A stretch of DNA of 64,000 nucleotides from Octopus vulgaris. Taxonomy: Eukaryota. The stretch covers positions 38,130,001 to 38,194,000 of the forward strand of contig OX597836.1 of NCBI GenBank assembly GCA_951406725.2. The letters run 5' to 3'. Positions 1 through 17,885 of this stretch are shown in pieces. The stretch's first letter is position 1. The number at the start of each line of letters is the position of its first letter. Position numbers: made by a program.

Positions 1-3000
1 AACGACGCTAACAATCTCTCGTAATGTGAATTGTTTTTAGCAACATACCTTTTGTTGCCTTCTGTTGTCTATCTTCATTTCCAACGACTCACACCCTTAA
101 TGGAAAGATTGTATGTTTGATATTGCTGTGTTAAGTGGAAGTAATTATGAATAAGTAAATAACATGTTTTATAAATGGTGATAATCGAGTAGGAAGTTTC
201 CTTCCGAATCTCTCTTACTAATATACCCATATGTTACTAGATAAACAACATTTCTTTGTGTCTTTATGAAAATAATGCTGTTAATGTACTAATGCTGTTG
301 GTATTTGCTTCTCCTTCCTCAATATTCTTATTTCTTTCAAATGTGATATACAGTTCATGTTTTTACTACATCTAAATCATATTGCCCTTCCTAATATATT
401 TTAACTACACTTGACATAATTACAATGATTTTTCTAATGTTTATAATTGTGTTGTCGAATGTAACATTGATTACTGGATGAAAGCTTGTAGAACTTCAGG
501 ATATTATAGAAAATCCACTTGCAATGGTCTACAATAATACGTTTACTAATTATAAGCGTTTAAGTTGATATGTACCAGCTCCTATCTTAATTTATATACT
601 TTGAAATTATTTTTGTTTCCACTACTAATGACGTTGATTAAACTTAACGACTGAAATCTTACCAATTTCTTCTTATCTAACATATAATATTCCTTGTATA
701 GTTTTGAAAAGGCTCTAACATTTCATTCATATAATTTGAGATAATGAATATTGTATTGCGTTATTTTCAAGAACCTACTCTACTTTCAAGAGATGTGTAT
801 TTCGTACATAGTTTATGTATTTGTGAAAAGCTTAATTCAATCTGACAACGCATGTAGTCTGAGAAAGTGTGGCGTAATGCATTATTTCCTATACAGGCAA
901 CTTGTTGTATACCTATCGTGTAATATATATGTTTTCTCTACATTTATACATGAATACAAAGATACATACATCCATATATATATATATGAATAGCTAGCTA
1001 GATATATATATAAGTTCCAGTGTAGGTATGCATTTACTCACATGTGTATATATCTTGTCAGTATATTGGCGTATATCTGTATGGATATATGTACATGTGC
1101 ATGTGCATAAATATGTTTTCCAATATGCTGAAATGCATTTTCTTACGTGTATTTACGTCTAGATAAGTATGCTTCTATTTACGTGCAAATGTGGGGTGAG
1201 TGATTCATTGTCAGATAGATAAACTCATGTACAGGTGTGTGCTTGATAGTTGGAGTGTGAGAGAGCATTACACTTGCATTCAATATAGATATATATGGGA
1301 GTATTACTAAGTTTTGTGATTATTTTTCCTTGGAAGGAGGGCAACCAGAACCTACTAGACAGCCACCTATAATTGAGATGACGACAAAGAGAGGTGAGAC
1401 ATTAAGAAACCCTTTATTGCCTTTTAGTAAACGTATATGCTGACATCCATCTTATTCTCATCACGTTTGATATCAATGTGTAGCAAAGATTTTAATAGCC
1501 AATTGACAACCAGTAAGGATTTACTTTCTACATAAAGATAGTAGGTGTGAATTGTTGTATAGATTTTCCATATGTTTTCATTCAGAGAATTATTACAAGC
1601 AGTGATTCTCACTATTCATTGAGAGAAGATAGTAATGTGGAGTAAAGTGTATTGTTTGTGTGTGTGTGTACAAAGAAGACTTGACAACTGCTGTTTGAAC
1701 ATGGAACAGTAAATGTTAATTTTGTTTCTCGCAGTTGTGGAGAAAACTCCGGCACCTGCCATTACTTTACCAACAAAGGGTAAGGCTCTTGTACTGCTCA
1801 ACATATTCTTTGTTAATAGAGTGTTGTAGATTTGTATGTGTTCATGTTGTTGGTGGGCGTACATGTTTACATGTTATAGGGTATTGTTATTGACGAGAAT
1901 TATGTTGGTTATCAGAGAAACTCAGTGCTTTTGTCTATATGTGTATTGATTTTTAGACATTTGTCTTTGCTATATATGTCAGTTTTGTATTTCTCGTTCA
2001 GTGTTTTTGCAAGTTGTCTAATATGGAAATTTCAAACGAATGTTCAGATGCTTCTTCCAGTGAATGTTAGATGTTGAATGCCTGCAATTTCTTCGTATAT
2101 AATTGAGTGTTCTTTTGTTTTCTTTTGTCAATATGGAACGCGATTTTCCATGCAACACTGTCGCTGCAGGATTCGACATCGTTTCGGTTGAAGTGTATGT
2201 GATAACATTTGTTTGTTGTTGTTCTGATAGTTCCTGTCATTTTTCGTCTTCAATTGTTGATACTCTGTTGTGAACCAGTTTTGAGGTAGTTGTGATGAAA
2301 TATCTTGTTTTGTTTTGTGAGTTTTCAGATGTTTGTATTTTCGGAACTGTTTTTGTGCATAAGTACATGTAGTGTAAAATTGTAACTTTGCGTCATTGAA
2401 ATAGTTTTGAAATAGTATTGTAGATATATGTGTTGGCCGTGTATTACTGGATAGGTGATAAGTTATCCTAATGTTCTCCAGGTGATTGTGGTGCTACAGA
2501 ATCTGACATCATCTTCATTTTGGACTCATCAACTAGTGTCCAAGAAGAAAACTTCAAGAAAATGCTAAATTTCATTGTTGATTTTGTGTCTGCTGCTTCC
2601 ATTGACAATGGCAATGTTCGAATCGGTGCAGTCCTTTACAGTTCAGACGTGAAAATCCAATTCCATTTGAATGCTTTCCAAACAAAGCAAGAAGTAATCG
2701 ATGCAGTCCTCCAAATTCCATATGTTTACGGCAGTACAAACACTTACGGCGGGCTTAACACCATGCGGACAGTAATGTTCACGGCAGAGAATGGTGACAG
2801 GCCGTCCGTTCCCAATATTGCCATTCTGCTCACCGACGGCGTATCGAACGTCAATGCTTACGACACTATTCCAGAAGCCATGAAAGTGAGAGAGGATGGC
2901 ATCCACATATATGCTATTGGTATTGGTCTCAGTGACACTACAGAATTGAGCCAGATTTCCTCTTTACCTGTTGACGAAAACATGTTTATTGTGACTGACT

Positions 3001-15000: not shown

Positions 15001-17885
15001 TTGTCAATATGGAACGCGATTTTCCATGCAACACTGTCGCTGCAGGATTCGACATCGTTTCGGTTGAAGTGTATGTGATAACATTTGTTTGTTGTTGTTC
15101 TGATAGTTCCTGTCATGTTTCGTCTTCAATTGTTGATACTCTGTTGTGAACCAGTTTTGAGGTAGTTGTGATGAAATATCTTGTTTTGTTTTGTGAGTTT
15201 TCAGATGTTTGTATTTTCGGAACTGTTTTTGTGCATAAGTACATGTAGTGTAAAATTGTAACTTTGCGTCATTGAAATAGTTTTGAAATAGTATTGTAGA
15301 TATATGTGTTGGCCGTGTATTACTGGATAGGTGATAAGTTATCCTAATGTTCTCCAGGTGATTGTGGTGCTACAGAATCTGACATCATCTTCATTTTGGA
15401 CTCATCAACTAGTGTCCAAGAAGAAAACTTCAAGAAAATGCTAAATTTCATTGTTGATTTTGTGTCTGCTGCTTCCATTGACAATGGCAATGTTCGAATC
15501 GGTGCAGTCCTTTACAGTTCAGACGTGAAAATCCAATTCCATTTGAATGCTTTCCAAACAAAGCAAGAAGTAATCGATGCAGTCCTCCAAATTCCATATG
15601 TTTACGGCAGTACAAACACTTACGGTGGGCTTAACACCATGCGGACAGTAATGTTCACGGCAGAGAATGGTGACAGGCCGTCCGTTCCCAATATTGCCAT
15701 TCTGCTCACCGACGGCGTATCGAACGTCAATGCTTACGACACTATTCCAGAAGCAAAGAAAGTGAGAGAGGATGGCATCCACATATATGCTATTGGTATT
15801 GGTCTCAGTGACACTACAGAATTGAGCCAGATTTCCTCATTACCTGTTGACGAAAACATGTTTATTGTGACTGACTTCAACGAACTGTCGAATCTGAAAG
15901 AAAGAATATTTGAGCAATATTGCCCAGGTATAGCAATTAGCATGTGATTACAAAACGAAGTTGTATTGTAAAGCATTACTAATCAATGATATAATCTCAG
16001 CTATTCTACAAAGATATATTTAACACCATCCCCTACTGTGTTACTTTCAAGTCTGAGCTTTAGTTAATGTTTTGTGCAAGTATTTACCATTGACGTTTCT
16101 AACGACGCTAACAATCTCTCGTAATGTGAATTGTTTTTCGCAACATACCTTTTGTTGCCTTCTGTTGTCTATCTTCATTTCCAACGACTCACACCCTTAA
16201 TGGAAAGATTGTATGTTTGATATTGCTGTGTTAAGTGGAAGTAATTATGAATAAGTAAATAACATGTTTTATAAATGGTGATAATCGAGTAGGAAGTTTC
16301 CTTCCGAATCTCTCTTACTAATATACCCATATATTACTAGATAAACAACATTTCTTTGTGTCTTTATGAAAATAATGCTGTTAATGTACTAATGCTGTTG
16401 GTATTTGCTTCTCCTTCCTCAATATTCTTATTTCTTTCAAATGTGATATACAGTTCATGTTTTTGCTACATCTAAATCATATTGCCCTTCCTAATATATT
16501 TTAACTACACTTGACATAATTACAATGATTTTTCTAATGTTTATAATTGTGTTGTCGAATGTAACATTGATTACTGGATGAAAGCTTGTAGAACTTCAGG
16601 ATATTATAGAAAATCCACTTGCAATGGTCTACAATAATACGTTTACCAATTATAAGCATTTAAGTTGATATGTACCAGCTCCTATCTTAATTTATATACT
16701 TTGAAATTATTTTTGTTTCCACTACTAATGACGTTGATTAAACTTAACGACTGAAATCTTACCAATTTCTTCTTATCTAACATATAATATTCCTTGTATA
16801 GTTTTGAAAAGAGTCTAACATTTCATTCATATAATTTGAGATAATGAATATTGTATTGCGTTATTTTCAAGAACCTACTCTACTTTCAAGAGATGTGTAT
16901 TTCGTACATAGTTTATGTATTTGTGAAAAGCTTAATTCAATCTGACAACGCATGTAGTCTGAGAAAGTGTGGCGTAATGCATTATTTCCTATACAGGCAA
17001 CTTGTTGTTTACCTATCGTGTAACATATATGTTTTCTCTACATTTATACATGAATACAAAGATACATACATCCATATATATATAAATAGCTAGATAGATA
17101 TATATATATAAGTTCCAGTGTCGGTATGCATTACTCACATGTGTATATATCTTGTCAGTATATTGGCGTATATCTGTATAGATATATGTACATGTGCATG
17201 TGCATAAATATGTTTTCCAATATGCTGAAATGCATTTTTTTACGTGTATTTACGTCTAGATAAGTATGCTTCTATTTACGTGCAAATGTGGGGTGAGTGA
17301 TTCATTGTCAGATAGATAAACTCATGTACAGGTGTGTGCTTGATAGTTGGAGTGTGAGAGAGCATTACACTTGCATTCAATATAGATATATATGGGAGTA
17401 TTACTAAGTTTTGTGATTATTTTTCCTTGGAAGGAGGGCAACCAGAACCTACTAGACAGCCACCTATAATTGAGATGACGACAAAGAGAGGTGAGACATT
17501 AAGAAACCCTTTATTGCATTTTAGTAAACGTATATGCTGACATCCATCTTATTCTTATCACGTTTGATATCAATGTGTAGCAAAGATTTTAATAGCCATT
17601 TGACAACCAGTAAAGATTTACTTTCTACATAAAGATAGTAGGTGTGAATTGTTGTACAGATTTTCCATATGTTTCCATTCAGAGAATTATTACAAGCAGT
17701 GATTCTCACTATTCAGAGAAGATAGTAATGTGCAGTAAAGTGTATTGTTCATGTGTGTGTGTACAAAGTAGATTTTGTACACAGACGCAAACTCTTTATT
17801 CTATTTTATTAAACGTATATGCTGACATCCATCTTATCCCTCTCATACACTTGATATGTATATATATATATGTATTCTCAGTATT

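What the first reader, a model, noticed from the sequence alone, without database searches (positions are those of the whole stretch)
1..17770. Near-identical 3.2 kb three-exon module tandemly amplified into a poly-VWA protein
Seen: at least 5.5 units, each with 57+45+570 nt exons (224 aa), and with introns as identical as the exons. The MIDAS residues (DSSTS, T, TDG) and a Cys at each domain end are intact. Known: MIDAS-bearing VWA domains bind collagen and matrix ligands in collagen VI, matrilins and molluscan matrix proteins, where VWA repeats are usually highly diverged. Inference: very recent or continually homogenised domain amplification, giving a high-avidity protein whose length likely varies between individuals.
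Basis: partly seen in the sequence, partly recalled or inferred. Interest (0 to 1): 0.8.

Follow-up and report, generated by a model that had tools for sequence, protein, structure and literature searches.

The report
Near-identical VWA exon array in octopus
A 3.2-kb block of three exons that encodes one metal-binding adhesion (VWA) domain plus a short linker is repeated head to tail, almost letter for letter, inside an octopus matrix-protein gene, much as the kringle repeats are in human LPA.

Summary
Window 1-17775 contains five complete copies and one partial copy of a ~3,220-bp unit. Copies 1-5 are 99.2-99.8 % identical. The array is cut by the window start, so the copy number is a minimum. 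Each unit has three phase-1/1 exons of 57, 45 and 570 nt. All 16 exons have AG/GT borders and no stops. The 570-nt exon is a full-length Pfam VWA domain in 5 of 5 copies. It folds confidently (pLDDT 92) and resembles collagen VI alpha3 N2, mussel PTMP1 and integrin I domains.

The gene already exists as fragmentary Octopus sinensis RefSeq models named "collagen alpha-1(XIV) chain-like". These models use the same splice cycle. A cuttlefish model is also built of near-identical repeats (96-100 %) that are only 77-79 % identical to the octopus ones. In a domain tree the repeats cluster by lineage. Variants shared between units are mosaic: 27 of 55 site pairs fail the four-gamete test.

Best reading: a coding multi-exon macrosatellite homogenised by unequal crossing-over and gene conversion, encoding a beads-on-a-string multivalent matrix protein. 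Not tested: avidity, length polymorphism, tissue and ligand. No collagen helix is visible.

The parts
1..3224 (+). repeat unit 1 (begins inside the array; the array is cut by the window start)
3225..6444 (+). repeat unit 2
6445..9664 (+). repeat unit 3
9665..12886 (+). repeat unit 4
12887..16100 (+). repeat unit 5
16101..17775 (+). partial unit 6 (98.4 % to unit 2 positions 1-1678). It holds exon A only and is the most diverged copy.
1337..1393 (+). exon A (57 nt, phase 1/1, first half of the Pro/Thr-rich linker), unit 1
4557..4613 (+). exon A, unit 2
7777..7833 (+). exon A, unit 3
10997..11053 (+). exon A, unit 4
14213..14269 (+). exon A, unit 5
17434..17490 (+). exon A, partial unit 6 (intact, AG/GT); no exon B or C follows it
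1735..1779 (+). exon B (45 nt, phase 1/1, second half of the linker), unit 1
4955..4999 (+). exon B, unit 2
8175..8219 (+). exon B, unit 3
11397..11441 (+). exon B, unit 4
14611..14655 (+). exon B, unit 5
2482..3051 (+). exon C (570 nt, phase 1/1, one complete VWA domain with MIDAS residues and terminal Cys), unit 1
5702..6271 (+). exon C, unit 2 (the copy used for searches and the fold)
8922..9491 (+). exon C, unit 3
12144..12713 (+). exon C, unit 4 (107 of 107 residues identical to the in-frame part of O. sinensis XP_029650176.1)
15358..15927 (+). exon C, unit 5
17789..17857 (+). 69-nt piece 84 % like unit positions 1403-1469 (the intron just after exon A), at the broken 3' edge of the array
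17854..19059 (.). AT-rich microsatellite (period 6, about 201 copies) that bounds the array on the 3' side

Best explanation
This is the 3' part of a coding, multi-exon macrosatellite inside an Octopus (vulgaris/sinensis group) gene for a large extracellular multi-VWA protein. The repeated DNA unit is about 3.22 kb. It carries two small exons that encode a 35-residue Pro/Thr-rich spacer and one 570-nt exon that encodes a whole MIDAS-bearing VWA domain. All three exons are in phase 1/1, so gaining, losing or skipping any exon or unit keeps the reading frame. Shown: the array, the exon structure, the VWA fold, the intact MIDAS residues, the mosaic variant sharing between units, and the same repeat architecture in a cuttlefish. 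Inferred for the DNA: units are copied and kept alike by unequal crossing-over and gene conversion (concerted evolution). Copy number can therefore drift. Inferred for the protein: it is a secreted string of identical VWA beads on flexible, probably O-glycosylated spacers. Each bead binds an acidic residue of a matrix ligand through a divalent cation at its MIDAS, as integrin I domains and mussel PTMP1 bind collagen. The many identical beads would give multivalent cross-linking.
For: Array and identity. Exons: 16 of 16 have AG/GT, the same phase and no stops. VWA domain: Pfam PF00092 at E about 1e-46 over profile positions 1-173 of 174, in 5 of 5 copies. Fold: AF2 pLDDT 92, pTM 0.90. Foldseek best matches are collagen VI alpha3 N2 (6snk, TMq 0.89), PTMP1 including the entry with a zinc-occupied MIDAS (4cn9, 4cnb, TMq 0.90-0.91), and integrin alpha1/alpha2/alphaM I domains. 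The sequence search of PDB agrees. The MIDAS residues sit where expected in the model: after strand 7-14, at the start of helix 87-98, and after strand 111-117. Independent gene models: O. sinensis XP_029650176.1 and XP_029654099.2 splice C>A>B>C exactly as read here, and isoform XP_036368327.1 skips exon B in frame. Selection on coding changes between copies: 3 non-synonymous against 7 synonymous codon differences, P = 0.0027 under a neutral expectation of 0.76. Homogenisation: 27 of 55 informative site pairs show all four gametes. The edge copy, unit 6, is the most diverged. The domain tree puts window units, O. sinensis and close unnamed sequences in one clade (100/98). The cuttlefish repeats fall in the sister clade (96/82). 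The diverged domains of O. bimaculoides A0A0L8FLC0 fall outside both. Identities are 98.4-100 % within the window, 96-100 % within the cuttlefish, and 77-79 % between them. In vertebrate COL6A3 each N-terminal VWA domain is likewise one exon and is alternatively spliced (PMC7319802, Figure 1 legend).
Against: No reads were available, so copy number and even the correctness of the assembly are unverified. No transcript or proteome data were seen. The RefSeq models are fragmentary, and one ends in a +1 frameshift of the same exon. The 5' end, any signal peptide and the 3' terminal exon are not in view. After exon A of unit 6 no further coding similarity was found (0 of 700 tblastn HSPs lie beyond 17,500). 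How the gene ends is therefore unknown. Exons are not more conserved between copies than introns. Lineage-wise clustering is also what independent recent bursts would give. Ligand, glycosylation, secretion and multivalency are inferred from family knowledge, not tested.
Confidence: 0.72

Rival explanations
1. A single recent burst of duplication in this lineage, and separately in cuttlefish, with no continuing homogenisation. On this reading the units are alike only because they are young.
For: Pairwise differences are tiny (0.16-0.81 %). Exon and intron variation are equal. Young VWA duplicates recur independently in other molluscs, with maxima of 89-97 % within Physella, Saccostrea and Mytilus proteins.
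Against: Variant sharing between units is reticulate, not tree-like (27 of 55 pairs). There are unit sub-types at 95-97 % (P0087, P0020, P0088) next to types at over 99 %. Substitutions private to window units 3 and 4 (positions 100 and 101) both appear in the P0087 sub-type. The same VWA-plus-linker repeat architecture is near-identical within a cuttlefish too.
Confidence: 0.2
2. Assembly artefact: one or two real units were over-expanded, or two haplotypes were interleaved, by the assembler.
For: Near-identical 3.2-kb repeats are hard to assemble. The array abuts a 1.2-kb microsatellite and the window edge. The older O. sinensis assembly holds the gene only in pieces: models of 155, 140 and 445 residues, one of them on a 13.4-kb contig.
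Against: Units differ by specific substitutions, including 3 amino-acid changes, and by small indels of 4, 6 and 2 nt, rather than by random homopolymer noise. Unit lengths differ (3214-3224). Two other assemblies independently show two or more adjacent units (P0087 in O. sinensis) and three or more (P0004 in Acanthosepion pharaonis).
Confidence: 0.08
3. A decaying, non-functional array (pseudo-exons) that is no longer expressed as a poly-VWA protein.
For: The array ends abruptly in a truncated unit with no recognisable downstream exon. One O. sinensis model carries a frameshift within exon C. No expression data were seen.
Against: 16 of 16 exons are open with canonical splice sites. All MIDAS and Cys residues are intact in 5 of 5 copies. 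There is an excess of synonymous over non-synonymous differences. RefSeq models were built on these exons.
Confidence: 0.06
4. Polyprotein: the repeat is a device to make many identical about 24-kDa VWA monomers, released by cleavage at the basic pair at the end of exon A.
For: A Lys-Arg pair ends exon A in 6 of 6 copies, and an Arg-Lys-Arg is present at the same place in P0087. Identical units are what dosage selection favours.
Against: The cuttlefish linker has no dibasic site. No P4 arginine is present, so there is no furin-type consensus (the motif rule is recalled, not tested). VWA arrays in collagen VI, matrilins and PTMP1 act uncleaved.
Confidence: 0.07

Closest known systems
Human LPA kringle IV type 2 repeat (coding multi-exon copy-number-variable macrosatellite)
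   Same: A multi-kb unit holds more than one exon plus its introns. It is repeated head to tail at near identity and in frame, and each unit adds one protein domain (abstracts of PMC11515395 and PMC7613587).
   Different: The domain type differs (kringle versus VWA), and there are three exons per unit here. Copy-number polymorphism is demonstrated for LPA and untested here. The unrelated taxon makes this an analogy of mechanism, not homology.
Collagen VI alpha3 N-terminal VWA array (N2-N10)
   Same: It is the best sequence and fold match in PDB (9han, 6snk). There is one VWA domain per exon, and the exons are skippable in frame (PMC7319802, Figure 1 legend).
   Different: COL6A3 domains are old and diverged, and the aligned COL6A3 domain lacks the second MIDAS serine (alignment). 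No Gly-X-Y run of 5 or more triplets exists in any frame of the window. The database names 'COL6A' and 'collagen alpha-1(XIV)-like' rest on the VWA domain only.
[quoted passage not shown]
   Same: It is a molluscan extracellular protein of tandem MIDAS-bearing VWA domains. TMq is 0.90-0.91, and the Cys at both domain ends align. It is described as coupling collagens to other byssal components (passage in PMC4597212).
   Different: PTMP1 has two different VWA domains and no homogenised array. Sequence identity is about 30 %. Binding was not tested here.
Octopus bimaculoides VWFA protein A0A0L8FLC0 and other molluscan 'COL6A-like' poly-VWA proteins
   Same: It has the same architecture of VWA beads with Pro/Thr-rich spacers.
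   Different: Its domains are 38-60 % alike, and they fall outside the window-plus-cuttlefish clade. It is a paralogue type, not the same gene.
Octopus sinensis RefSeq models XP_029650176.1, XP_036368327.1, XP_029654099.2 ('collagen alpha-1(XIV) chain-like')
   Same: They are the same gene or gene family: 107 of 107 identical residues to unit 4 over the in-frame part, and 95-97 % for the two-unit model. They use the same splice cycle.
   Different: They are fragments of 140-445 residues, and one is frame-shifted. They do not reveal the array.

Membership tests
VWA domain (Pfam PF00092) | Profile match above the gathering score over the full domain | tested here: met
   156-158 bits against a cut-off of 23.8, profile positions 1-173 of 174, in 5 of 5 copies
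VWA domain (Pfam PF00092) | Alpha/beta Rossmann-like fold | tested here: met
   AF2 pLDDT 92 and pTM 0.90 with alternating strands and helices. TMq is 0.79-0.91 to the listed VWA and I-domain structures.
MIDAS-type (cation-dependent ligand-binding) VWA domains | DxSxS, a Thr and an Asp on three loops at the top of the sheet | tested here: met
   D14/S16/S18, T87 and D118 are present in 5 of 5 copies. They lie at the ends of strands 7-14 and 111-117 and at the start of helix 87-98. T117, D118, G119 and N86 are invariant in 57 aligned relatives. The motif definition comes from PMC4597212 and from recall.
MIDAS-type (cation-dependent ligand-binding) VWA domains | Actual cation and ligand binding | not testable with these tools
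   Needs recombinant protein.
Collagen VI / FACIT collagens (the names given by databases) | Gly-X-Y triple-helical region | tested here: not met
   There are 0 runs of 5 or more Gly-X-Y triplets in six frames of the 64-kb window. No Collagen family appeared among 117 scanned ORFs. The 5' part of the gene lies outside the window, so absence from the whole gene is not shown.
Matrilins | VWA plus EGF-like domains plus a C-terminal coiled coil | tested here: inconclusive
   No EGF hit in the ORFs of 19-64 kb. Short exons and the rest of the gene were not covered.
Pif/BMSP shell-matrix proteins | VWA together with chitin-binding domain(s) | tested here: inconclusive
   No chitin-binding family in the window ORFs. 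The gene ends are not in view. The family definition is from PMC11291548 and PMC9635652.
Coding multi-exon macrosatellite (LPA KIV-2 type) | Multi-kb unit with two or more exons, near-identical including introns, in frame | tested here: met
Coding multi-exon macrosatellite (LPA KIV-2 type) | Copy number varies between individuals | not testable with these tools
   No reads and no second individual.
Concerted evolution of tandem repeats | Repeats more alike within a lineage than between lineages, with reticulate variant sharing | tested here: met
   Tree, identities, four-gamete test. Independent bursts are not excluded.

The most novel reading that the evidence does not exclude
The array is an old coding macrosatellite that already existed before octopuses and cuttlefish split. 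The split date of more than 200 million years is recalled, not tested. On this reading the array has been renewed ever since by concerted evolution. Coleoid cephalopods would then carry a length-tunable string of identical MIDAS-VWA beads. Its copy number would differ between individuals and species and would set the cross-linking strength of a secreted material such as skin or sucker mucus, egg cement or connective matrix.
Probability: 0.3. Interest if true: 0.65.

Novelty: new member of a known kind. Interest (0 to 1): 0.45.

Why it matters
The array would be a clear invertebrate counterpart of the LPA-type coding macrosatellite, with whole domains and their introns kept identical and every unit in frame. 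It explains why this gene is broken into small, misnamed 'collagen-like' models in cephalopod annotations. It also offers a natural system to ask how repeat number in a multivalent matrix or adhesive protein is tuned, and whether concerted evolution can persist across deep cephalopod lineages. For annotation, the gene should be called a poly-VWA protein, not a collagen, until a triple helix is found.

Tried and rejected
1. More VWA exons downstream. tblastn of the exon C product found only the 5 copies; the next best hits had E of 0.098 or worse and were chance. tblastn of all 88 fetched proteins gave 0 of 700 HSPs beyond position 17,500.

2. Other genes in 19-64 kb. Pfam on 117 ORFs of 55 residues or more gave one piggyBac-type transposase remnant and one chance hit inside a 62-nt tandem repeat. 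Rfam at gathering threshold gave 0 matches and ARAGORN found 0 tRNAs.

3. Collagen helix. No Gly-X-Y runs were found.

4. Literature. Six answered searches and passages read in seven papers gave no description of this array. The 'concerted evolution' hit in the argonaut genome paper concerns reflectins, not VWA. Octopus skin-mucus proteomes list 'VWFA domain-containing' proteins without identifiers in the main text. Their supplements are closed, so whether this protein is in mucus stays open.

5. A third homologue search, with the two-unit O. sinensis model as query, found no further named cephalopod model (26 proteins at E of 1e-30 or better among 1,167 candidates). Proteins longer than 2,000 residues were not searchable, so a full-length model elsewhere could have been missed.

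6. Left out. Exons A and B (19 and 15 codons) are too short for family searches. They were compared only through the RefSeq models (and by eye).

7. Not used. Genome contigs holds only bacteria and archaea. No complex prediction was run because no binding claim depends on one.
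Full report
**Observation.** The first 17.8 kb of the window is a head-to-tail array of a ~3,220-bp unit. Repeat families of six copies have start-to-start spacings of 3224, 3220, 3220, 3222 and 3214 nt. An alignment of the units gives 99.19-99.84 % identity among units 1-5, with 5-26 mismatches and 1-11 gap columns per pair. The sixth unit is partial. It matches unit 2 positions 1-1678 at 98.4 % up to window position 17775. A 69-nt piece resembling the intron after exon A follows, and then a 1.2-kb AT-rich microsatellite at 17854-19059. 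The window has no N. Position 1 falls inside a unit, so the array probably continues upstream and the copy number is a minimum.

**Coding content.** Each complete unit holds a 199-codon stop-to-stop frame on the + strand. This frame is a full-length Pfam VWA domain in 5 of 5 copies (E about 1e-46, profile positions 1-173 of 174).
- 57 nt, 6 copies
- 45 nt, 5 copies
- 570 nt, 5 copies

All 16 have AG/GT borders, no stop and the same phase 1/1. That makes 672 nt or 224 codons per unit. Thirteen of the 32 whole codons of the two small exons are Pro or Thr, so they encode a short mucin-like spacer. Every search, the tree and the fold used the 570-nt exon alone, and the two small exons were assessed only through existing gene models.

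**Independent support for the splicing.** The nearest database proteins are Octopus sinensis RefSeq models named 'collagen alpha-1(XIV) chain-like'.
- XP_029650176.1 reads exon A end, then exon B, then exon C. Its in-frame part is 107 of 107 identical to unit 4.
- XP_029654099.2 lies on a 13.4-kb contig. It runs C>A>B>C through two units that are 168 of 169 identical to each other and 95-97 % identical to the window units.
- XP_036368327.1 skips exon B in frame.

These models are 140-445 residues long, and one ends in a +1 frameshift of exon C. Existing annotation therefore holds the gene only in pieces. The window is thus from an Octopus of the vulgaris/sinensis group. This is an inference from identity, and I did not try to place it further.

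**The domain.** An AlphaFold2 model built from a 57-sequence alignment is confident (pLDDT 92, pTM 0.90). Foldseek against PDB gives collagen VI alpha3 N2 (6snk, TMq 0.89). It also gives mussel PTMP1, including the entry with a zinc-occupied MIDAS (4cn9, 4cnb, TMq 0.90-0.91), and integrin alpha1/alpha2/alphaM I domains. The sequence search of PDB agrees. D14, S16, S18, T87 and D118 are intact in all five copies. They lie on the loops that follow strands 7-14 and 111-117 and that precede helix 87-98. Cys2 and Cys188 align with the terminal cysteines of PTMP1. The only amino-acid differences between copies are at positions 100, 101 and 133.

**Is it a collagen?** Nothing in the window says so. 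No run of five or more Gly-X-Y triplets exists in any frame. Pfam on 117 ORFs from 19-64 kb gives only a piggyBac-type transposase remnant. No fetched protein matches anything beyond 17.5 kb (0 of 700 HSPs). The names 'COL6A' and 'collagen XIV-like' rest on the VWA domain alone. How the gene ends after the last exon A is unknown.

**How the array is maintained.** Among units 1-5 there are 34 variable substitution columns. Of these, 24 lie in 2,548 non-exon bases and 10 in 672 exon bases (Fisher p = 0.21), so introns are as uniform as exons. Of the 10 codon differences, 7 are synonymous and 3 are not (P = 0.0027 against a neutral 0.76). This argues for a functional reading frame. Variants shared by two units are mosaic: 27 of 55 pairs of informative sites show all four gametes. 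Such a pattern needs exchange between units rather than simple serial duplication. The edge copy, unit 6, is the most diverged.

The cuttlefish model CAE1248468.1 (Acanthosepion pharaonis) is itself made of repeats that are 96-100 % alike, joined by a 25-residue Pro/Thr-rich linker. Those repeats are only 77-79 % identical to the octopus ones. In a maximum-likelihood tree of 40 domains (only domains covering at least 140 of the 189 positions were kept), three groupings are clear:
- The window units group with the O. sinensis units and three close unnamed sequences (support 100/98).
- The cuttlefish repeats and five unnamed sequences form the sister clade (96/82).
- The eight diverged domains of O. 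bimaculoides A0A0L8FLC0 lie outside both.

This is the signature of concerted evolution, although separate recent bursts in each lineage would look the same.

**Comparison with what is known.** At the DNA level the closest analogue is the human LPA kringle IV-2 repeat. It is a 5.5-kb multi-exon coding unit of variable copy number (abstracts). At the protein level the closest are the single-exon, alternatively spliced VWA domains N2-N10 of COL6A3 (PMC7319802, Figure 1 legend) and mussel PTMP1. Young VWA duplicates are not rare in molluscs. Among the multi-VWA relatives examined, maximum intra-protein identity reaches 89 % in Physella, 93 % in Saccostrea and 97 % in a Mytilus model, while others sit at 23-60 %. 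The present array is the extreme of that range. It is also the only case here where intron identity could be seen. Six answered literature searches and passages in seven papers gave no description of it. Supplements that might list the protein in octopus mucus proteomes were closed.

**Verdict.** The reading 'recent or continually homogenised amplification' is supported and is extended by cross-species evidence. High avidity, length polymorphism, secretion, glycosylation and ligand remain inferences. An assembly artefact cannot be excluded without reads. It is made unlikely by unit-specific substitutions and indels, and by two other assemblies that show adjacent near-identical units. I rate it a new member of a known kind (coding multi-exon macrosatellite; poly-VWA matrix protein) and of moderate interest.

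Noticed in passing
window 17854-19059: A very long AT-rich microsatellite (period 6, about 201 copies, 86 % matches) directly bounds the truncated last unit. It may mark the breakpoint that ended the array, or a hard-to-assemble spot.
   Followed up: partly
window 22797-23312 (-): A 172-codon open frame whose residues 99-160 match the start of the piggyBac-type transposase family DDE_Tnp_1_7 (E 4e-9, profile positions 3-58 of 349). It is a transposase remnant.
   Followed up: partly
window 26917-27146, 28840-29061 (inverted), 32790-32963: Three copies of a ~170-220-nt interspersed repeat (90-93 % alike), probably a SINE-like element. Rfam and ARAGORN found no tRNA-like part.
   Followed up: partly
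window 28324-28607, 33627-33774, 34935-35138, 43243-43515, 48169-48357: A second interspersed repeat family (66-83 % alike), often next to TA/TG microsatellites.
   Followed up: no
window 32955-33168: A 62-nt tandem repeat, 3.4 copies. A weak Pfam 'Vitelline_membr' hit on one frame across it is a repeat artefact.
   Followed up: partly
window 45853-46082: An (ATT)n microsatellite of about 77 copies.
   Followed up: no
exon positions within units 1-5 (e.g. 6099-6183 in unit 2 coordinates): Synonymous differences between copies (7 in about 160 synonymous sites) are denser than intron differences (24 in 2,548 nt) and are clustered. Units 1 and 3 share a block of variants that runs from the 3' third of exon C into the next unit's start. 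The changes at positions 100 and 101 in units 3 and 4 are both present in the O. sinensis P0087 sub-type. This looks like short conversion tracts from a diverged unit sub-type, or CpG decay.
   Followed up: partly
O. sinensis XP_029654099.2 (P0087), N-terminal part: This model carries two exon-B-like segments in a row and one extra codon at the C>A junction compared with the window units. Other parts of the array, or a second array, therefore hold structurally different units.
   Followed up: no
window 2128-2493 (-) and equivalents in each unit: A 121-codon open frame on the minus strand recurs in every unit. It is low-complexity, overlaps the intron before exon C, and is probably chance carried along by the repeat.
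   Followed up: no
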